Source of the DNA: Candidatus Endomicrobiellum guadaloupense | GTDB taxonomy: Bacteria; Elusimicrobiota; Endomicrobiia; Endomicrobiales; Endomicrobiaceae | Direction of reading: 5' to 3' | NCBI GenBank assembly: GCA_031278895.1 | Contig: JAITJN010000035.1 | Location: forward strand, 1,380-65,379 | Length of the DNA: 64,000 nt | Shown here: positions 52,843 through 57,940 of the stretch, piece after piece | How positions within the stretch are numbered: the stretch's first letter is position 1 | Layout of the letters: each line of letters opens with the position of its first letter | Made by a program: the position numbers and the translations under genes | The notes under the pieces: generated by a model | Database searches by the model: none | Told to the model about the DNA's origin: nothing | What the model saw: only the letters and a program-made list of their open reading frames with translations

Positions 52843-53976
52843 TCAAATATTATTTAATTTTAAATACAAATTCTCATGCTGTTTAACACTTGTGTTTATA
52901 TCATAATCTTGACTAATGGAATTAAAACCCTTTAACCCCATATCTTTTAGAATATGCTTATCATTTAATAAATAAACAACGTTTTCAGCTGTCTTTTCAT
53001 AATCATAAGGTTCTATTAAAAACCCAGTTTCTCTATCTTTGACTATTTCTTTTACTCCATCTACTGCATTTGCAATAACAGGTATAGAGCAACACATAGA
53101 TTCAATAATAGTACAAGGTAAACCTTCCCAAAGAGATGTTAAAACAAAAATATCGCTTGCTTTAAGTATTTCTACAATATCGCTTCTCCAGCCAAGGATA
53201 AGAATTTTATATTTTAAATTTAAGCTTTCTATTAGAGCCTCAAGTTCTTTTCTTTGCTCTCCATCTCCAACTACCAAAAAAATAACATTATCAATCCTTT
53301 TAGATACAATTGAAGCGGCTCTAATAAAGTCTCTCAGATTTTTCTGCGGTTTAAAAGGGCCTATTGTAGTGACAACCTTCATATCTCTGCTAATACCAAG
53401 CTCAGGCTTAAATTCTGGATTAGGGACAAAACTTTTATAGAACTTTGTATCTATACCAGCTCTTATAAGCACAAACGTATCTTCTTTGGCTATCTTATAG
53501 TGCAATCCTTTTTTTATATCTTCTTTAGTTACTACGATTAATTTATCTGAAAACAACGCACAAAACTTTTCAAGAAATATATAAAAATTTTTAACAATCC
53601 AATTCTGCGTTTCATTGAAACCATATCCATGTATTGTGTGAACAATAGTTTTTACACCTGCAAGTTTAGCAGCAATTCTTCCAAGTATACCAGCTTTTGA
53701 AGAATGTGTATGCACAATATTAGGCCTTTCTCTTTTTAAAACAGTATAAATTTCAAAGAGAGTTTTTAAATCCTTTAGAGGAGAAATTTCTCTAACAAAA
53801 TCTTTTAGACTATAAAGCTCAATTTTTTTTGCAATTATACCGTCTAGAATCCCTCCATTACCCGCAATAATAAAACTATCAAAAATATCTTTATTAATAT
53901 TTTTTGCAACGTGCAAAGCTACTTTTTGAGCACCACCAAGTTCAAGTTTAGTGATAATATAACAAACTTTTATCAT
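52843..53976 (-). CDS. GT-B glycosyltransferase (GT4 family)
   Basis: 377 aa starting MIKVCYIITKLELGGAQK.. with the C-terminal ..SLWEGLPCTIIESMCCSIPVIA.. EX7E region. Confidence 0.85.
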   Translation of the reverse strand: MIKVCYIITKLELGGAQKVALHVAKNINKDIFDSFIIAGNGGILDGIIAKKIELYSLKDFVREISPLKDLKTLFEIYTVLKRERPNIVHTHSSKAGILGRIAAKLAGVKTIVHTIHGYGFNETQNWIVKNFYIFLEKFCALFSDKLIVVTKEDIKKGLHYKIAKEDTFVLIRAGIDTKFYKSFVPNPEFKPELGISRDMKVVTTIGPFKPQKNLRDFIRAASIVSKRIDNVIFLVVGDGEQRKELEALIESLNLKYKILILGWRSDIVEILKASDIFVLTSLWEGLPCTIIESMCCSIPVIANAVDGVKEIVKDRETGFLIEPYDYEKTAENVVYLLNDKHILKDMGLKGFNSISQDYDINTSVKQHENLYLKLNNI

Positions 53977-54010
53977 GTTTGTTATTCTTCTATTTCCAAT
54001 AGAATATCAA

Positions 54011-54194
54011 CTATATTGATTTTGTTAAGCATTTAAGAAACCACTCTTCTTCCATTGACTTTAGATATTTTAATGCTTCTTTTTCATCTGTAAAATTCTA
54101 ATGTTTCTTCTTCCTCATATCCTCTAAACTTCTCTTTTAACACTTCATGCACATTCTCATCGTCATCTAATATTACTTCCTCATCTCCATTCAT
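54011..54194 (-). pseudogene. Response-regulator receiver-domain remnant (frameshifted and truncated)
   Basis: Hand translation starting 27 nt after the kinase stop gives MNGDEEVILDDDENVHEVLKEKFRGYEEEETLEFYR* (54194..54084). It continues in the +1 frame as ..TDEKEALKYLKSMEEEWFLKCLTKSI*. This matches only the first ~55 residues of a receiver (..DDDE....L...L...GY.V....dg.EAL.yL..). The phospho-acceptor Asp region is missing. Confidence 0.5.
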
Positions 54195-54220
54195 TATTTC
54201 TATCTTGTTTACAAACCATC

Positions 54221-55720
54221 TTACATTGGGTTGTCTGCTTTTGGGAATGTAAGTATAAATTCTGTTCCTATACCTTCCCTAGATTCTATCTTTAATTTGC
54301 CATTCATTGATTTTATTGTAGACATTACCTGTTGCGTACCTATTCCATTTCCATATTCCTTTGTCGTTCCTACTTCTTCCCCTCTCATTAACTTCTCCGC
54401 CATCTCTTTGGGCATCCCTTGCCCGTTATCCTTCACTATTATCTCTACTTCTTCTCCTTTTTCTTCACACACTACTTCTATCTCTGCTTTCTTTCCTTCT
54501 ACTGCTTCTACACCATTGTTTATTAGGTTTGACATCATTCGTTCAAATTCTACTCTCTCTCCTTTGATAAATACTATTTTCTCTTCATACTTTATCTCTA
54601 CGTTCTTGTTAGTATACTCATGCTCCTTCCTTTCTATCAATTCTTTCAGACTCAAATTCACGTTTATTCTTTCTTCTTTCTTTTGAACAGTTCTTACTCT
54701 AGCAAGACCCTTTCTACTCTCTCCCTCTTTTATTTCTTTATATTTTTCCATCATCCTGCTTGCTATATCATGTATACTTCTTTTTAGCGAATCTAATATT
54801 CCATTTTCTTTATCTGTTAGCTTACTTTGTACTATATACTGGAATGCTCCCAATGCCGCTAATGGCGAATGTATATCGTGCGCTACTTCTTTTGCTATTT
54901 TACTCAGTTCTTTTTCTAATTTCAGTTTTGCTTCCAACTCTTCCTTCTCTTTCCTATCCGTTATATCTATTGAAACTCCTATGATTCCAATAACATTATT
55001 CTTATCATCATAAAGCGGAGATTTTCTTGTTAGCATTACTGCCTCTTTACCATTAGCTACTTTTCCTATCTCCAATACTTCTTCAGTTTCTCTATTATCA
55101 ATAATCCTCTGATCTGTTTTTCTGAGTATTTCCGCCACATATCTCCATGATAAATCATAATCTGTCTTGCCTGTAACCTCTTTAAAAGATTTAAATCCTA
55201 ACATTTCTGCTTCAGCTTGATTACAACCTAAATAAACTCCATTGATATCTTTCCAATAGATGCATCCTGGAGCATATTGTAAAATATTATTAACAGTCCA
55301 TTGTGTTTTTAATTCACTTTCTCTCTCTTCTTTTAATCTACGTTCTGTTATATCAACTGTCACTCCTATAATCCCTATAACCTCACCTTTATCATCGCAA
55401 AGAGGAGACTTCCTTGTTAACATTACCAATTTCCTATTACCACAACAAGTACCGTTTTCTATAATGTCTTCACATACTTTACTTTTCATAATTCTTTTAT
55501 CTGTTTCTCTCAAGACACCAGCAGTCTCTTTCCATGGCAAGTCATAATCTGTTTTTCCTATCATTTCTTCTGGAGAGCTTAGCCCTAACAACTCTGCTTC
55601 AGCTTGATTACAGCCCAGGTAAACTCCATTGATATCTTTCCAATAGATACAGCCTGGCACCATTTGTAAAATGTTGCTAATTTCAGCTTGATTTTTTCCC
55701 ATAATTATCCATTTATTCAA
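54221..55720 (-). CDS. Soluble sensor histidine kinase with two tandem PAS domains
   Basis: 499 aa with no TM segment. PAS x2 (..PGCIYWKDINGVYLGCNQAEAE..), H-box EVAHDIHSPLAAL, N-box NLINNGVEA, G1 DNGQGM and G2 GNGIGT. The track start is TTG at 55720. An ATG (MGKNQAE) lies at 55702. Confidence 0.9.
   Translation of the reverse strand: MNKWIIMGKNQAEISNILQMVPGCIYWKDINGVYLGCNQAEAELLGLSSPEEMIGKTDYDLPWKETAGVLRETDKRIMKSKVCEDIIENGTCCGNRKLVMLTRKSPLCDDKGEVIGIIGVTVDITERRLKEERESELKTQWTVNNILQYAPGCIYWKDINGVYLGCNQAEAEMLGFKSFKEVTGKTDYDLSWRYVAEILRKTDQRIIDNRETEEVLEIGKVANGKEAVMLTRKSPLYDDKNNVIGIIGVSIDITDRKEKEELEAKLKLEKELSKIAKEVAHDIHSPLAALGAFQYIVQSKLTDKENGILDSLKRSIHDIASRMMEKYKEIKEGESRKGLARVRTVQKKEERINVNLSLKELIERKEHEYTNKNVEIKYEEKIVFIKGERVEFERMMSNLINNGVEAVEGKKAEIEVVCEEKGEEVEIIVKDNGQGMPKEMAEKLMRGEEVGTTKEYGNGIGTQQVMSTIKSMNGKLKIESREGIGTEFILTFPKADNPM
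54950..55675 (-). repeat. Internal tandem duplication (two PAS modules, period 387 bp)
   Basis: For example, 55594-55675 and 55207-55288 read ctgcttcagcttgattaca[8 nt]aaactccattgatatctttccaatagat... in both copies. At protein level aa 16-128 and aa 145-257 align without gaps. Confidence 0.9.
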
Positions 55721-56408
55721 TAAATTTGACTGCTGAATATCCTTGTTTTAAAGACACATTTGAAGAAAATTGACTCTCTTTGTTATATATTTTCATTAAA
55801 AATTCTGAAGGTAAATCTTTATATACGTATAAGGATGATGAAACATTTAGAATTTCTGCAGTATTCAAATATATAGGGAGTTCCGCTATGAAATATTTTA
55901 CAGCTACCCTCACCGCTTCATCATCTGCATCCCCTTGGAAGCCTTTACTTGCTAATACTATCTTGGAAGTCGCTAAACATCCTTTCCTAAAATCCTCATT
56001 AGTCTCATATAATTTTTTATAAGTATCATGAAATTTTAAATATCTTTCATTTTTCATGAGTTCACTAATAAAGACTATCATATTGTTGGCTTCAACCTCT
56101 GGAATATTATTTGCCACTAAAGCTCTTATTGCTTTATTTTTTAAATTGTTATCATGTAATTTTGTCTTTTTTTCGGCTTTCTCTTGAGAATATCCCATCG
56201 CCTGTAGCGTGTACATAGAGATACCATCTGGTATACAAATATTTATTCTTTTAAAAGTTGACACCCCCCATGAAAAGATTTTTTTTAAATTCTCTTCTGA
56301 ATAATAACTGTTAAACGGACTTATGCCTATTAACGCATGTTCTTTTAAAACAAATATTTTTTCTGACTCGGAATTTGCAAAATTTAATACTGCCTTTTCT
56401 TTTCCCAT
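55713..56408 (-). CDS. tRNA-dependent cyclodipeptide synthase (CDPS)
   Basis: 231 aa. KEHALIGISPFNSYYSEENL matches the catalytic-Ser pocket of AlbC (GEHALIGISAGNSYFS) and YvmC (RRHVLVGISPFNSRFSE). AVKYFIAELPIYL matches the YxxxExP motif (YVLAEAPLF / YVIAELPFF). ..SSLYVYKD.. aligns with ..VLCYH.. / ..LLAYH... The size and single-domain architecture fit. GGAGAGG lies 7 nt upstream of the ATG. Confidence 0.85.
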   Translation of the reverse strand: MGKEKAVLNFANSESEKIFVLKEHALIGISPFNSYYSEENLKKIFSWGVSTFKRINICIPDGISMYTLQAMGYSQEKAEKKTKLHDNNLKNKAIRALVANNIPEVEANNMIVFISELMKNERYLKFHDTYKKLYETNEDFRKGCLATSKIVLASKGFQGDADDEAVRVAVKYFIAELPIYLNTAEILNVSSSLYVYKDLPSEFLMKIYNKESQFSSNVSLKQGYSAVKFIE

Positions 56409-56436
56409 AATAACCTCTCCATTCTAAATGTTAAAC

Positions 56437-56486
56437 ATTATACTACTTCTTTTCCAAATTATAACGATTACTTCTTATGAAGTCTA
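56437..56486 (-). promoter_or_regulatory. Candidate promoter region of the CDPS-kinase operon
   Basis: The minus strand has TAGACT-17 nt-TATAAT (56486..56458) and a second TATAAT at 56442-56437. A 6-1-6 palindrome AATGTT-T-AACATT lies between the -10 and the SD. By eye only. Confidence 0.3.
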
Positions 56487-56603
56487 TCCATCTTACCTAA
56501 CCCATACATCCTCTCTAATTCTACTATATAAGCTTCTTTTCTTTGCATTTAGATTACTGACTTAAGAGACTTTACAACACATAGCATATAAAAATATAAA
56601 TTT

Positions 56604-56666
56604 GATGTCAACAATACAATCATTTTACATCTTCCCATTGCGAATAACGATGTTACCAATACAATC
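56604..56666. repeat. Two 18-bp direct repeats, 45-bp period, upstream of the CDPS operon
   Basis: 56604-56621 reads gatgtcaacaatacaatc and 56649-56666 reads gatgttaccaatacaatc (16/18 identical). Confidence 0.7.
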
Positions 56667-56732
56667 ACGCCTTTCTTTATTACTTTTGAACTTATAGGGA
56701 AATAATACTTATTTCTAAAATACAGCTGTCAA

Positions 56733-57101
56733 TTATATACTAACAACAGCCGAAGAATACTCGCTTTCCCAAACTTCAACTTCGCATACTTTTGCAGTCT
56801 CAGTCTCTATTTGCTTTAATTGTTCATAAATAAATGCTGCTATATTTTCGGCTGTTGGATTTATTTTATTGAAGGGTTCTATTTCATTTAAGAACTTGTG
56901 GTCTAAATATGCAATAATTTTATCAAGATGCTTTTTTATATCCGTAAAATCTATAAGCAGACCCGCATTATCAAGCTTTGAACCAGAAAAGGCAGCTCTT
57001 ATCTTCCAGTTATGTCCATGAAGGTCTTCGCACCTGCCTTTATATTCTCTAAGGCAGTGCGCCGAAGCAAAATTTTTAGTTACTGAAAGTTTATATTTCA
57101 T
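56733..57101 (-). CDS. queD: 6-carboxy-5,6,7,8-tetrahydropterin synthase
   Basis: 122 aa with ..SAHCLREYKGRCEDLHGHNW.. and ..DHKFLNE.. Confidence 0.9.
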   Translation of the reverse strand: MKYKLSVTKNFASAHCLREYKGRCEDLHGHNWKIRAAFSGSKLDNAGLLIDFTDIKKHLDKIIAYLDHKFLNEIEPFNKINPTAENIAAFIYEQLKQIETETAKVCEVEVWESEYSSAVVSI

Positions 57102-57109
57102 TTTTCCTT

Positions 57110-57940
57110 TTAACCACCTAAATCAACTTTTTTTACATCTTTTATACTTTTTGAGAAAAACTTCATTCCTATTTTCTTGAACTTTTCAGGATTATCACTT
57201 ACGTAAAATTTTAGATATTTCTTATTGCTCTTTGATGCAAGCAGAGATTTCTGCTCTAAAATACGTTTTACTTCCATGGCTGTAGATTTTGCTGAATCTA
57301 CAAGGACTATATTCTTATCCAAATTCTTCTCTAATGCTTTTCTTAGGAGCGGGTAATGAGTACACCCTAAAACTAAAGTGTCAATCCTTTTTGAAAGCAA
57401 AGGCTTTATATACTTTTTAACTATGATATCGGTTATTTCTCCATCTGTCAAACCTTCTTCTACAAGTGGAACAAACAACGGGCATGCCTGTTGATATATT
57501 TTAGCTTTTGCAAGTTTGCTTATTGCTTTAGGATAAGATTTGCTTCCTATAGTACCTTCAGTACCGATAATCCCTATTTTTAAATTTTTTGACGCTCCTA
57601 CTGCAGCTATTGCACCAGGTGATATTACCCCTATAACAGGAATTTTTGCAATTCTATCTAAAACTGGTAAAGCTAAAGCAGACACAGTATTACACGCTAC
57701 AACTATAAGTTTTACATTGCTTTTTATCAAAAAGGAAGTTATTTTCTTAGAAAACTTAATTATTGCATTTTGCGATTTTGTACCGTATGGGACATGAGCA
57801 GTATCTCCAAAATAAATAAGATTTTCATAAGGAAGAATTTTATTTATTGCAGACATTACGGTAAGACCGCCAAATCCAGAATCAAAAATCCCTATAGGCT
57901 TATTATTTCCTAGCGTTTTGATCTCTTTCTTTCTTTGCAT
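57110..57940 (-). CDS. murI: Glutamate racemase
   Basis: 276 aa with IGIFDSGFGGLTV, ..VACNTVSA.. and ..LGCTHYP.. Confidence 0.95.
   Translation of the reverse strand: MQRKKEIKTLGNNKPIGIFDSGFGGLTVMSAINKILPYENLIYFGDTAHVPYGTKSQNAIIKFSKKITSFLIKSNVKLIVVACNTVSALALPVLDRIAKIPVIGVISPGAIAAVGASKNLKIGIIGTEGTIGSKSYPKAISKLAKAKIYQQACPLFVPLVEEGLTDGEITDIIVKKYIKPLLSKRIDTLVLGCTHYPLLRKALEKNLDKNIVLVDSAKSTAMEVKRILEQKSLLASKSNKKYLKFYVSDNPEKFKKIGMKFFSKSIKDVKKVDLGG

What the first reader, a model, noticed from the sequence alone, without database searches (positions are those of the whole stretch)
55713..56408. Stand-alone CDPS with a non-canonical residue at the NYH/XYP signature position
The 231-aa protein has the catalytic-serine pocket GISPFNSYYS (Ser37/Asn40 equivalents), the YFIAELP (Tyr178/Glu182) motif and a conserved Tyr in ..SSLYVYKD...
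- My hand alignment places Lys where NYH-subfamily enzymes have His203 and XYP enzymes have Pro203.
- That would place it outside the two described subfamilies, or as a variant of NYH.
- The specificity-pocket residues, and hence the product, cannot be inferred by eye.
- The surrounding genome otherwise looks like a low-GC fermentative anaerobe, a group not noted for CDPSs.
Basis: partly seen in the sequence, partly recalled or inferred. Interest (0 to 1): 0.65.

Follow-up and report, generated by a model that had tools for sequence, protein, structure and literature searches.

The report
Cyclodipeptide synthase paired with sensor kinase
The gene is a genuine, probably active cyclodipeptide synthase whose odd lysine already has an active precedent; more notably, it is always paired (sometimes fused) with a sensor kinase whose sensing domain resembles a known quorum-sensing receptor, suggesting an untested signal-maker/signal-sensor pair.

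Summary
Window 55713-56408 (-) encodes a 231-aa CDPS (Pfam 1e-49) with Ser30, Asn33, Tyr172, Glu176 and Tyr196 intact, and Lys197 where NYH enzymes have His203. No alignment restores His or Pro.

- **Subfamily:** by sequence, tree and predicted fold it belongs with NYH enzymes, not in a third subfamily.
- **Precedent:** CDPS 8 from Ca. Odyssella (WP_010302596.1) also has Asn-Tyr-Lys. It makes cyclo(Gly-Val) in E. coli and is published under NYH.
- **Variability:** position 203 varies widely in this branch (K, N, T, Y, R, Q, S, C).
- **Not stand-alone:** its stop overlaps the start of a soluble PAS-PAS histidine kinase (54221-55720).

The CDPS-kinase pair recurs in Endomicrobiellum, Holosporales-type alphaproteobacteria, Odyssella, Legionella and a contig catalogued as viral. 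It occurs in unrelated neighbourhoods and is sometimes fused into one protein. The two genes co-diverge (r=0.89).

The kinase's PAS domain is closest, by sequence and by predicted fold, to Vibrio VqmA, the receptor for the pyrazinone autoinducer DPO. VqmA's ligand-anchoring Lys is invariant; its two stacking Phe are replaced.

Best reading: a cyclodipeptide synthase/sensor pair. Ligand sensing is inferred, not shown. A 2018 paper noted CDPS-PAS co-occurrence in one sentence; I found no experimental follow-up.

The parts
55713..56408 (-). CDPS gene (231 aa), NYH-type fold with an Asn-Tyr-Lys signature
   Evidence: ORF. Pfam PF16715 at 1e-49 and TIGR04539 at 5e-53. AF2 pLDDT 94.8 with best Foldseek hits to NYH CDPS structures at TM 0.86-0.89. 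dN/dS of 0.16-0.22 against Endomicrobiellum orthologues.
55818..55820 (-). Lys197 codon (AAA), equivalent to AlbC His203
   Evidence: Read from the DNA. Alignments.
56319..56321 (-). Ser30 codon (AGT), the catalytic serine (AlbC Ser37). Asn33 (AlbC Asn40) is at 56310-56312.
   Evidence: Both residues are invariant in alignment A1.
55821..55895 (-). Stretch holding Tyr172 (55893-55895), Glu176 (55881-55883) and Tyr196 (55821-55823), equivalent to AlbC Tyr178, Glu182 and Tyr202
   Evidence: All three are invariant in alignment A1.
54221..55720 (-). Soluble PAS-PAS histidine kinase (499 aa). Its TTG start overlaps the CDPS stop by 8 nt; an alternative ATG at 55702 would leave a 10-nt gap.
   Evidence: ORF. 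Pfam PAS_4 x2 and HATPase_c. H-box EVAHDIHSPL at residues 278-287. dN/dS of 0.28-0.38.
55325..55684 (-). PAS1 (kinase residues 13-132), VqmA-like. The Lys104 codon (AAG) is at 55409-55411.
   Evidence: phmmer to VqmA chains 6ugl/6ide/6kju at E 5e-9. AF2 pLDDT 91.6. Foldseek top 6 hits are all VqmA at E about 1e-10. VqmA Lys101 is conserved.
54938..55297 (-). PAS2 (kinase residues 142-261), a tandem copy of PAS1 with the same LTRKSPL motif (Lys233)
54236..54556 (-). HATPase_c catalytic domain of the kinase (residues 389-495). The phospho-acceptor His281 is at 54878-54880.
56409..56732 (-). Intergenic region upstream of the CDPS, with a conserved TATAAT about 30 nt before the ATG and a conserved GGAGAGG/GTAGAGG ribosome-binding site
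   Evidence: Alignment of four Endomicrobiellum genomes. The consensus promoter scan was not above chance, so the promoter assignment is an inference.

Best explanation
The locus is a two-gene operon: a tRNA-dependent cyclodipeptide synthase followed by a cytoplasmic PAS-PAS histidine kinase.

**Step 1 (well supported).** The CDPS is an active NYH-type enzyme.
- Ser30 accepts the first aminoacyl group from an aminoacyl-tRNA.
- Tyr172 and Glu176 position and deprotonate it.
- Tyr196 relays the proton during cyclisation.
- Lys197 takes over the role of His203, which with Asn40 holds the catalytic loop and the dipeptidyl intermediate in a reactive conformation.

**Step 2 (inferred, low resolution).** The pockets are P1 = LGCPIIYY and P2 = TIVSDPE. 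They are lined by bulky aromatic residues. They most resemble those of CDPS 8 (cGV) and CDPS 102 (cCG). The product is therefore probably a small aliphatic cyclodipeptide.

**Step 3 (genetic coupling shown, ligand inferred).** The cyclodipeptide, or a derivative of it, is sensed in the cytoplasm by the VqmA-like PAS domain(s) of the co-transcribed kinase. The kinase then autophosphorylates on His281 and signals to a response regulator encoded elsewhere.

The pair would thus be a self-contained signal-synthase/receptor cassette. It would be analogous to Tdh-DPO-VqmA or CqsA/CqsS. It has spread horizontally among intracellular and protist-associated bacteria.
For: **Enzyme**
- Family and fold membership.
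- All catalytic residues are invariant across 45 homologues.
- Purifying selection, dN/dS 0.16-0.22.
- The Asn-Tyr-Lys enzyme CDPS 8 is active, making cGV.
- AlbC H203A is strongly impaired, and Asn40/His203 'work in pairs' (PMC5935735). So position 203 matters, and Lys is evidently an allowed partner for Asn40.

**Coupling to the kinase**
- A PAS-HK starts within -37 to +76 nt of the CDPS stop in the window, L001-L007, L009, L010, L012-L015 and L018. The same holds in three Legionella species (L055, L060, L070/L074). Flanking genes are otherwise unrelated.
- Single-ORF fusions exist in both orders: L016, L017 (Pfam CDPS-PAS_4-HATPase_c, 746 aa), P0053, P0054, P0121, P0127, P0111 and P0042.
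- None of the roughly 45 actinobacterial loci has an adjacent kinase.
- CDPS and kinase pairwise identities correlate, r=0.89, Mantel p about 2e-4 over 16 loci.
- Reverse test: kinases picked only by PAS similarity have a CDPS directly upstream in 2 of 3 informative cases.

**Sensor**
- PAS1 hits only VqmA (E 5e-9) and weakly BvgS in the PDB by sequence.
- VqmA chains are the six best Foldseek matches, about 100-fold better in E-value than the next hit.
- VqmA Lys101 H-bonds the ligand carbonyl, and K101R abolishes binding. This Lys is invariant in all 26 PAS domains of CDPS-linked kinases. So is Lys23; Asp71 is Asp in 25 of 26 (Glu in L018 PAS1).
- The pi-stacking Phe67 and Phe99 are always Leu/Ile and Thr/Ser. 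That fits a non-aromatic diketopiperazine rather than an aromatic pyrazinone.
- The kinase domains fill its whole length, leaving no room for a membrane segment. This suits a membrane-permeant ligand made in the same cell.
Against: - No binding or activity data exist for this protein or for any partner kinase.
- No response regulator or second kinase is detectable in the 64-kb window, so the output is unknown.
- The conserved Lys could be a structural feature of this PAS_4 subgroup rather than a ligand contact.
- One close PAS-HK homologue is an orphan with no CDPS nearby (L091).
- Cluster-situated regulators are common next to biosynthetic genes, so adjacency alone does not prove that the product is the ligand.
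- Deep nodes of my NJ tree are unresolved (bootstrap below 20%). I cannot show that kinase-linked CDPSs form a single clade.
- The meaning of 'quorum' sensing is unclear for an endosymbiont living inside a flagellate.
- The product prediction rests on 4/8 and 2/7 pocket identities to CDPS 8.
Confidence: 0.5

Rival explanations
1. The kinase is an ordinary cluster-situated regulator. Its PAS domains sense some other cue, such as redox state, a metabolite or a host signal. Through a distant response regulator it controls production of the cyclodipeptide. The cyclodipeptide is then the output, for example an antimicrobial or host-directed molecule, and not the kinase's ligand.
For: - PAS histidine kinases are generic sensors.
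- The Legionella partners are hybrid PAS-HisKA-HATPase-REC-Hpt kinases typical of phosphorelays.
- One close homologue works without any CDPS nearby (L091).
- CDPS products are usually discussed as precursors of bioactive diketopiperazines (PMC5816076).
- CDPSs in protist symbionts have been read as defensive (PMC10132079).
Against: - The sensor sits downstream of the enzyme in the same transcript and is repeatedly fused to it in both orders. That is unusual for a transcriptional regulator of the enzyme gene.
- No tailoring or export genes accompany the pair.
- The PAS domain's closest relative is an autoinducer receptor, with the ligand-anchoring Lys retained.
- The two genes co-diverge.
Confidence: 0.3
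2. The same synthase-sensor coupling operates, but as an intracellular metabolic read-out rather than a cell-to-cell signal. The CDPS samples the pool of particular aminoacyl-tRNAs. The steady-state cyclodipeptide level then tells the kinase about tRNA charging or amino-acid supply, acting as a second-messenger-like circuit in nutritionally dependent endosymbionts.
For: - The kinase is cytoplasmic, and the fusions put synthase and sensor in one polypeptide. That favours local, same-cell sensing.
- Carriers are mostly intracellular bacteria with reduced genomes: Endomicrobiellum, Holosporales, Odyssella and Legionella.
- CDPS substrates are aminoacyl-tRNAs (PMC5816076).
Against: - There is no precedent for such a circuit.
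- Cyclodipeptides are diffusible and would leak out of the cell.
- The cassette also rides on a contig catalogued as viral and on a genomic island. That fits a social or eavesdropping function at least as well.
Confidence: 0.12
3. Lys197 marks a catalytically dead or repurposed CDPS, for example an aminoacyl-tRNA-binding input domain. Alternatively, it marks a genuinely separate third subfamily outside NYH and XYP.
For: - AlbC H203A is strongly impaired.
- A few relatives have also lost Tyr202: L016/P0053 have Cys and P0118 has Asn.
- By the literal three-residue signature, the protein is neither NYH nor XYP.
Against: - CDPS 8, with the same Asn-Tyr-Lys-Asp motif, is active in E. coli and is filed under NYH.
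- All other catalytic residues are invariant.
- dN/dS is 0.16-0.22.
- Sequence and fold are clearly nearer to NYH than to XYP.
- Lys203 enzymes form at least two well-supported clades interleaved with His203 enzymes, plus L041 elsewhere in the tree.
- An earlier proposed third subfamily, SYQ, was later absorbed into XYP.
Confidence: 0.05

Closest known systems
CDPS 8 of Ca. Odyssella thessalonicensis (WP_010302596.1; Jacques et al. 2015, tabulated in Gondry et al. 2018, PMC5816076)
   Same: - Same Asn40-Tyr202-Lys203-Asp204 motif, with Pro at 206.
- 45% identity to the window enzyme.
- Similar pocket character: P1 LGFMIIWF and P2 ASIQDPL, against LGCPIIYY and TIVSDPE.
- Its gene is itself followed by a PAS_4-HATPase kinase (L003).
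   Different: - It lies in a different, well-supported clade (bootstrap 86) from the window clade (bootstrap 87-90).
- Four of 8 P1 residues and 5 of 7 P2 residues differ, so the product need not be cGV.
- Its partner kinase has one PAS domain, not two.
- It sits on a Toprim/DUF927 island in an alphaproteobacterium.
NYH-subfamily CDPS structures: Shae-CDPS 6ez3, YvmC 3oqh, BtCDPS 6ztu, Rv2275 2x9q, AlbC 3oqv
   Same: Rossmann-like CDPS fold at TM 0.83-0.89 (0.71 to AlbC 3oqv). Ser37, Asn40, Tyr178, Glu182 and Tyr202 are conserved.
   Different: - Lys replaces His203, and Asp replaces the usual Gln/Arg at 204.
- Only 24-29% identity.
- The pockets differ from the cLL, cYY and cFL motifs.
- Those enzymes sit beside tailoring enzymes (a P450, a cyclodipeptide oxidase) rather than a kinase. 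This last point is from my own knowledge of the pulcherrimin, mycocyclosin and albonoursin clusters.
Vibrio cholerae DPO-VqmA quorum-sensing receptor (PDB 6ugl, 6ide, 6kju) and vibriophage VP882 VqmA (7dwm)
   Same: - The PAS ligand-binding domain is the closest solved relative of the kinase's PAS1 by sequence (E 5e-9) and by fold (RMSD 1.7-2.8 A for the six VqmA chains).
- Lys101, Lys23 and Asp71 equivalents are conserved.
- It is a cytoplasmic receptor for a small amino-acid-derived six-membered N-heterocycle.
- A version of it is carried on a mobile element or phage.
   Different: - The output is a histidine kinase, not a LuxR-type HTH.
- The Phe67/Phe99 stacking pair is replaced by Leu/Ile and Thr/Ser.
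- The presumed ligand is made by a CDPS from aminoacyl-tRNAs, not from threonine via Tdh.
- Synthase and receptor are adjacent or fused, whereas, to my knowledge, tdh and vqmA are unlinked.
Autoinducer-synthase / sensor-kinase gene pairs such as CqsA/CqsS (Vibrio) and LqsA/LqsS (Legionella)
   Same: A small-molecule synthase is encoded next to a histidine kinase that senses its product. These pairs also occur in Legionella (PMC3376566 listed; the system's organisation is from my own knowledge).
   Different: - Those kinases are membrane-bound and sense alpha-hydroxyketones through transmembrane domains.
- Here the kinase is soluble and PAS-based, and the synthase is a tRNA-dependent CDPS.
- This resemblance is functional only; there is no homology between the synthases.
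CDPS-PAS co-occurrence noted by Skinnider et al. 2018 (PMC5767969)
   Same: [quoted passage not shown]
   Different: It is a single sentence with no loci, no kinase architecture and no fusions. It gives no homology to VqmA, no pocket analysis, no taxonomic pattern and no experiment.

Membership tests
Cyclodipeptide synthase family (Pfam PF16715 / TIGR04539) | Profile match above the curated cutoff over the full domain | tested here: met
   PF16715 scores 169.6 bits against a cutoff of 27. TIGR04539 scores 179.9 bits against a cutoff of 45.
Cyclodipeptide synthase family (Pfam PF16715 / TIGR04539) | Rossmann-type fold shared with solved CDPSs | tested here: met
   AF2 pLDDT 94.8, pTM 0.90. Foldseek gives E about 1e-18 and TM 0.86-0.89 to 6ez3, 3oqh and 6ztu.
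Cyclodipeptide synthase family (Pfam PF16715 / TIGR04539) | Catalytic Ser37, Tyr178, Glu182 and Tyr202 (AlbC numbering) | tested here: met
   Ser30, Tyr172, Glu176 and Tyr196 are present, and all are invariant in alignment A1.
Cyclodipeptide synthase family (Pfam PF16715 / TIGR04539) | Formation of cyclodipeptides from two aminoacyl-tRNAs | not testable with these tools
   There is only indirect support: the 45%-identical CDPS 8 makes cGV in E. coli.
NYH subfamily of CDPSs | Asn at position 40 | tested here: met
   Asn33, invariant in alignment A1.
NYH subfamily of CDPSs | His at position 203 | tested here: not met
   Lys197 (AAA at 55820-55818). The published curated table nonetheless files the Asn-Tyr-Lys enzyme CDPS 8 under NYH.
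NYH subfamily of CDPSs | Closer in sequence and structure to NYH members than to XYP members | tested here: met
   phmmer gives E 7e-23 to 8e-15 against NYH chains and 0.1-0.5 against XYP chains. TM is 0.83-0.89 to NYH structures other than AlbC (0.71) against 0.59-0.77 for XYP. The NJ tree places the clade among Asn40 enzymes, but deep nodes are unsupported.
XYP subfamily of CDPSs | Pro at position 203, with a non-conserved residue at position 40 | tested here: not met
   Position 203 is Lys and position 40 is the conserved Asn. The nearest Pro is at the position equivalent to 206.
VqmA-type PAS ligand-binding domain | PAS fold with VqmA as the nearest solved relative | tested here: met
   phmmer E 5e-9 to 6ugl, 6ide and 6kju. 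The Foldseek top six hits are all VqmA chains, at RMSD 1.7-2.8 A.
VqmA-type PAS ligand-binding domain | Ligand-contact residues Phe67, Phe99 and Lys101 | tested here: inconclusive
   The Lys101 equivalent is invariant in 26 of 26 PAS domains. Phe67 is replaced by Leu/Ile and Phe99 by Thr/Ser.
VqmA-type PAS ligand-binding domain | C-terminal LuxR-type HTH output domain | tested here: not met
   The output here is DHp plus HATPase_c. A PAS + GerE relative does exist elsewhere (P0275).
Two-component sensor histidine kinase | Phospho-acceptor His box and HATPase_c domain | tested here: met
   EVAHDIHSPL at residues 278-287. HATPase_c at residues 389-495, E 3e-18.
Two-component sensor histidine kinase | A cognate response regulator | tested here: inconclusive
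   No REC domain was found in the 64-kb window with a five-sequence REC profile. A stand-alone REC follows the kinase in L006. A 121-aa stand-alone REC lies about 1.8 kb downstream in L018. REC is fused into the Legionella kinases.
Autoinducer synthase / cognate receptor pair | Synthase and receptor genetically linked and co-inherited | tested here: met
   Adjacency or fusion in more than 20 loci across several lineages. Co-divergence at r=0.89, Mantel p about 2e-4.
Autoinducer synthase / cognate receptor pair | The receptor binds the synthase's product and responds to it | not testable with these tools
   This needs binding and phosphorylation assays.

The most novel reading that the evidence does not exclude
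The CDPS plus VqmA-like PAS kinase cassette is a dedicated, horizontally mobile cyclodipeptide signalling system. It would be the first case where a diketopiperazine signal has both a genetically defined tRNA-dependent synthase and a cognate receptor. It would operate in protist endosymbionts (Endomicrobiellum, Holosporales, Odyssella), in Legionella and on a contig catalogued as viral. The relaxed residue 203 (mostly Lys) would be a hallmark of this signalling branch of the family.
Probability: 0.4. Interest if true: 0.8.

Novelty: new variant of a known kind. Interest (0 to 1): 0.55.

Why it matters
**For CDPS enzymology.** Natural Asn40/Lys203 enzymes, at least one of them active, show that the 'NYH versus XYP' signature is not a strict dichotomy. 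In the 256 nearest metagenomic CDPSs, position 203 is His in about 177 and Lys in about 52. It is also N, T, Y, R, Q, S, C or P, mostly alongside Asn40. This bears directly on the published idea that only a limited set of 40/203 pairs is compatible with catalysis.

**For signalling.** Diketopiperazines have long been proposed as bacterial signals. As far as I know, no dedicated synthase-receptor pair has been described. A conserved, sometimes fused CDPS/VqmA-like kinase cassette makes the question directly testable. One partner already has a known product: Odyssella CDPS 8 makes cGV.

**For symbiosis.** Genome-reduced endosymbionts of termite-gut flagellates retain the pair under purifying selection, which suggests it does something important in that setting.

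Tried and rejected
- **JGI annotation.** The label 'cyclo(L-tyrosyl-L-tyrosyl) synthase' on the homologues is not supported. The pockets LGCPIIYY / TIVSDPE do not resemble the cYY motifs VG[IV]TMLFN / L..xQLP.
- **Promoters, terminators and RNA.** The consensus promoter scan found 19 sites against 15.5 expected. The terminator scan found 1 against 0.8 expected, on the wrong strand. Both are uninformative. Rfam found nothing in 53500-57500.
- **Base composition.** GC is about 30-33% in the pair and in its flanks, so there is no sign of recent transfer.
- **Response regulator.** None was found in the window.
- **Lys197 geometry.** I could not measure it relative to Asn33 and Glu176 because model coordinates are not exposed.
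- **Tree building.** Biopython NJ with bootstraps timed out, so I replaced it with a vectorised NJ. Deep nodes stay unresolved, so I do not claim that kinase-linked CDPSs are monophyletic.
- **Is Lys203 exclusive to kinase-linked CDPSs?** No. L041 has Tyr-Lys-Asp but is coupled to an HTH_65-methyltransferase. Kinase-linked Legionella, L018, P0121/P0127 and P0111/P0042 have His.
- **Literature limits.** Jacques et al. 2015 is not held in the library. What I say about CDPS 8 comes from the Gondry 2018 supplements. Searches linking CDPS with histidine kinase, VqmA or Legionella found no experimental study. This covers only the open-access library.
- **Viral collection.** The scan returned only the contig already seen as L006.


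Full report
**1. What is at the coordinates**

Window 55713-56408 (minus strand) is an intact 231-aa ORF. It matches Pfam CDPS (PF16715, E 1.1e-49, nearly full profile) and NCBIfam TIGR04539 (E 4.8e-53). I verified the key codons directly in the DNA:

| Residue | AlbC equivalent | Codon | Coordinates |
|---|---|---|---|
| Ser30 | Ser37 | AGT | 56321-56319 |
| Asn33 | Asn40 | AAC | 56312-56310 |
| Tyr172 | Tyr178 | TAT | 55895-55893 |
| Glu176 | Glu182 | GAA | 55883-55881 |
| Tyr196 | Tyr202 | TAT | 55823-55821 |
| Lys197 | His203 | AAA | 55820-55818 |

Lys197 falls on AlbC His203 in several independent alignments:
- phmmer alignments to the solved NYH enzymes 6ez3, 6ztu/7azu and 3oqh
- MAFFT L-INS-i alignments of 93 and 256 CDPSs
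- an alignment anchored on AlbC residues 19-233

The AlbC-anchored alignment also reproduces the published pocket motifs of AlbC (LGVVLLFL) and Rv2275 (VGVTMLFN / LRFTQLP). That validates the register. There is no His in SSLYVYKDLPSEF, and the only Pro is three residues after the Lys.

**2. Which subfamily**

By everything except the literal third letter of the signature, this is an NYH-type enzyme.
- phmmer E-values are 7e-23 to 8e-15 against NYH structures and 0.1-0.5 against XYP structures.
- An AlphaFold2 model built on 45 homologues is confident (pLDDT 94.8, pTM 0.90).
- The model superposes on Shae-CDPS, YvmC, BtCDPS, Rv2275 and the AlbC mutant 4q24 at TM 0.83-0.89, and on AlbC 3oqv at 0.71. 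It superposes on XYP structures (9j61, 5ocd, 5mlp, 5mlq, 7qb8) at TM 0.59-0.77.
- Asn40 is conserved.

The literature says His203 is not decorative. [quoted passage not shown] A natural Asn/Lys pair is therefore relevant to CDPS specialists.

**3. The Lys has an active, published precedent**

Homologue P0036 (45% identical) is by exact-sequence look-up WP_010302596.1 from Ca. Odyssella thessalonicensis. This is 'CDPS 8' of Jacques et al. 2015. The supplements of Gondry et al. 2018 give three facts about it:
- its sequence reads ...INSSVFVYKDLPLF...
- its activity in E. coli is cGV 99%, plus cVP
- it is listed on the sheet 'NYH cyclodipeptide synthases', with pockets LGFMIIWF / ASIQDPL

So an Asn-Tyr-Lys-Asp CDPS is already known to be active, and the field already files it under NYH.

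An earlier candidate third subfamily, SYQ, consisted of one sequence and was later absorbed into XYP.

Position 203 is also much more variable than the NYH/XYP shorthand implies. A profile search of 1.84 billion representative proteins found 1,080 CDPSs. Among the 256 sequences nearest to the window enzyme, position 203 is His in about 177 and Lys in about 52. It is also N, T, Y, R, Q, S, C or P, mostly with Asn40 retained.

In a 131-sequence NJ tree (300 bootstraps), the window enzyme sits in a well-supported clade (87-90%) of Asn-Tyr-Lys enzymes from Endomicrobiellum and Holosporales-type alphaproteobacteria. CDPS 8 sits in a second Asn-Tyr-Lys clade (86%). Deeper nodes are unresolved.

The CDPS is under purifying selection, with dN/dS of 0.16-0.22 against five Endomicrobiellum orthologues.

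My conclusion is that this is an active NYH-type CDPS with a tolerated His-to-Lys substitution, not a new subfamily.

**4. Product**

I used the published pocket positions: P1 = 33-35-65-67-119-185-186-200 and P2 = 152-155-156-159-204-206-207. The window enzyme reads P1 = L26 G28 C58 P60 I114 I179 Y180 Y194 and P2 = T147 I150 V151 S154 D198 P200 E202.

These motifs match no defined specificity group. They clearly differ from the cYY motif, so the JGI auto-label 'cYY synthase' is unsupported. The nearest characterised pockets are:
- CDPS 8: LGFMIIWF / ASIQDPL, product cGV
- CDPS 102: VGYPSIFF / SAIKDPT, product cCG

Both share the Asp204 and Pro206 pair and aromatic residues at 186 and 200. I infer, with low confidence, a small aliphatic cyclodipeptide.

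**5. It is not stand-alone**

The CDPS stop codon (55715-55713) overlaps the TTG start (55720) of a 499-aa ORF by 8 nt. An alternative ATG start at 55702 would leave a 10-nt gap. That protein contains the following:
- two tandem PAS_4 domains (residues about 13-132 and 142-261)
- an H-box (EVAHDIHSPL, His281)
- a HATPase_c domain (residues 389-495)
- no space for a membrane segment

**The same arrangement recurs wherever a close CDPS relative is found.**
- A PAS-HK starts within -37 to +76 nt of the CDPS stop in L001, L002, L009, L010, L012 and L013, all from Endomicrobiellum.
- It does so in L005, L014 and L015 (alphaproteobacterial and Holosporaceae MAGs) and in L018 (a gammaproteobacterial MAG).
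- It does so in L003, the Odyssella CDPS 8 locus, on an island with a Toprim/DUF927 primase.
- It does so in L006, a RepA/ParA/RecT/SSB element, where a stand-alone receiver domain follows.
- It does so in three Legionella species, where the partner is a PAS-HisKA-HATPase-REC-Hpt hybrid kinase (L055, L060, L070/L074).

Flanking genes differ completely between these loci.

**In several cases the two are one protein.**
- L017 is CDPS-PAS_4-HATPase_c, 746 aa by Pfam.
- L016/P0053 (711 aa), P0054, P0121 and P0127 have the CDPS at the N-terminus.
- P0111 and P0042 have it at the C-terminus.

**Controls and reciprocal tests.**
- None of the roughly 45 actinobacterial loci fetched in the same scan has an adjacent kinase.
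- Pairwise identities of CDPSs and of their partner kinases correlate across 16 loci (Pearson 0.89, Mantel p about 2e-4).
- When I picked kinases purely by similarity to the PAS region, two of three informative loci had a CDPS directly upstream (L089, L090). One was an orphan (L091), and a fourth sat at a contig end.
- The L089 and L090 CDPSs are again Asn-Tyr-Lys-Asp and cluster with CDPS 8.
- The kinase is also under purifying selection, with dN/dS of 0.28-0.38.

**6. What the kinase senses (inference)**

By sequence, the only PDB matches to PAS1 are three entries at E 5e-9 and, weakly, BvgS. Those three entries, 6ugl, 6ide and 6kju, are V. cholerae VqmA, the cytoplasmic receptor of the autoinducer 3,5-dimethylpyrazin-2-ol (DPO).

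An AF2 model of PAS1 (pLDDT 91.6) finds VqmA chains as its six best structural matches among all PDB PAS domains. These score E about 1e-10 at RMSD 1.7-2.8 A, about 100-fold better in E-value than the next hit, NifL. The phage VP882 VqmA also appears.

In VqmA, DPO is held by pi-stacking with Phe67 and Phe99 and by an H-bond from Lys101 to the ligand carbonyl. K101R abolishes binding. I aligned 26 PAS domains from CDPS-linked kinases with VqmA:

| VqmA residue | Role in VqmA | In the 26 CDPS-linked PAS domains |
|---|---|---|
| Lys101 | H-bonds the ligand carbonyl | invariant Lys, in the motif LT[RK]KSPLY |
| Lys23 | binding-site residue tested by mutagenesis | invariant Lys |
| Asp71 | binding-site residue tested by mutagenesis | Asp in 25 of 26 (Glu in L018 PAS1) |
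| Phe67 | pi-stacking with DPO | always Leu or Ile |
| Phe99 | pi-stacking with DPO | always Thr or Ser |

A pocket that keeps the carbonyl-binding Lys but drops the aromatic stackers is what one would expect for a saturated 2,5-diketopiperazine rather than an aromatic pyrazinone. This is inference; nothing here demonstrates binding.

**7. Mechanism proposed, and its rivals**

*Best explanation (confidence about 0.5 for the whole chain).* The CDPS converts two aminoacyl-tRNAs into a small cyclodipeptide. The co-transcribed cytoplasmic kinase senses it through its VqmA-like PAS domains. The kinase then phosphorylates a regulator encoded elsewhere. This would be a compact signal-synthase/receptor cassette that has moved horizontally among intracellular and protist-associated bacteria.

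What is shown:
- enzyme family membership and intact catalytic residues
- operon structure
- cross-phylum linkage, fusions and co-divergence
- PAS homology to VqmA

What is inferred:
- the product
- the ligand-receptor relationship
- the output

*Rivals.*
- The kinase is a conventional cluster-situated regulator sensing another cue (about 0.3).
- The circuit reads out tRNA charging inside the cell rather than between cells (about 0.12).
- Lys197 marks a dead enzyme or a true third subfamily (about 0.05). This is contradicted by CDPS 8's activity, by selection and by the fold.

*Weak points.*
- No response regulator lies in the 64-kb window.
- There is one orphan kinase homologue.
- Deep phylogeny is unresolved.
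- No biochemical data exist.

**8. Novelty**

The CDPS itself is a new member of a known kind. The Lys variant is real but already represented by a characterised enzyme.

The CDPS-PAS association was flagged once, in a single sentence by Skinnider et al. 2018, who suggested quorum sensing 'akin to' the Vibrio system. I found no follow-up in the searchable literature. That library is open-access only.

What is added here:
- the kinase architecture
- the fusions in both orders
- the co-divergence of the two genes
- the specific VqmA homology and its pocket pattern
- the distribution: Endomicrobiellum, Holosporales, Odyssella, Legionella and a contig catalogued as viral
- the fact that the characterised CDPS 8 belongs to such a pair, which gives an immediate experiment

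I rate the whole as a new variant of a known kind (an autoinducer synthase plus receptor), of moderate interest now and high interest if the ligand-receptor link is confirmed.

**9. Source organism**

The nearest genome-collection relatives of the CDPS are Ca. Endomicrobiellum meruensis and Ca. E. cubanum MAGs, at 80-81% identity. These belong to Elusimicrobiota, Endomicrobiaceae. Upstream synteny (ilvC, a PASTA-domain gene, rpe, an amidase, murI, queD, then the CDPS) is shared with L001. I therefore take the window to come from a related Endomicrobiellum-type genome of termite-gut origin. This is an inference from its relatives.

Noticed in passing
L006 6001-8253 (same contig as L007 and L094; JGI 3300049926 Ga0497403_0000029, 55.4 kb): A CDPS (Asn-Tyr-Asn) / PAS-HisKA-HATPase kinase / stand-alone receiver cassette sits on a contig with RepA, ParA, RecT and SSB. 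IMG/VR catalogues this contig as a viral genome (UViG_3300049926_000093). It looks like a phage-plasmid carrying a signal-synthase/sensor module, which recalls vibriophage VP882's VqmA.
   Followed up: partly
L001 5358-9640; window 56733-57101: In L001 the CDPS-kinase pair lies between queD and queC-queE, apparently splitting a queuosine-precursor operon. queD is directly upstream of the CDPS in the window, L001, L009 and L011. queC and queE are absent from the 64-kb window.
   Followed up: partly
L016 4962-7097 (= P0053); P0118: Two relatives have lost the otherwise invariant catalytic Tyr202. The CDPS-kinase fusion in Alphaproteobacteria bacterium PG1894_72 has Cys; the same genome also has an intact unfused copy (L014). 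P0118 has Asn; its local sequence matches the row preceding CDPS 8 in Gondry's supplementary alignment, which is probably the Powai lake megavirus entry (ANB50207.1) that follows CDPS 8/102 in their NYH table. These may be inactive or repurposed CDPS domains.
   Followed up: no
L041 3913-5678: A gammaproteobacterial MAG has an Asn-Tyr-Lys-Asp CDPS with no kinase. Instead it overlaps by 4 nt a winged-HTH (HTH_65) SAM-methyltransferase of the Rv2258c type. So Lys203 also occurs in a conventional tailoring context.
   Followed up: partly
window 1-64000: Every long ORF that looks like a real gene (about 55 of them, 110 aa or more) is on the minus strand. GC skew is negative throughout the 48-62 kb stretch I profiled. 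This is an unusually long co-directional stretch.
   Followed up: no
window 54938-55684; L012 4487-6373: The kinase's two PAS domains are near-identical tandem copies: ILQMVPGCIYWKDINGVYLGCNQAEAE... and ILQYAPGCIYWKDINGVYLGCNQAEAE.... Copy number varies from one to three between orthologues (three in L012), which suggests recent duplication and loss of the sensor module.
   Followed up: partly
P0275 (255 aa): One relative of the kinase's PAS domain (41% identity) has VqmA's own architecture, PAS_4 plus a GerE/LuxR HTH. This shows the same sensor family is wired to both kinase and transcription-factor outputs.
   Followed up: no
L090 5672-8985: In a 1.6-Mb contig the CDPS-kinase pair is followed by a SAM-methyltransferase, a second HATPase_c protein and a 343-aa response regulator. 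This could be a fuller version of the signalling pathway.
   Followed up: no
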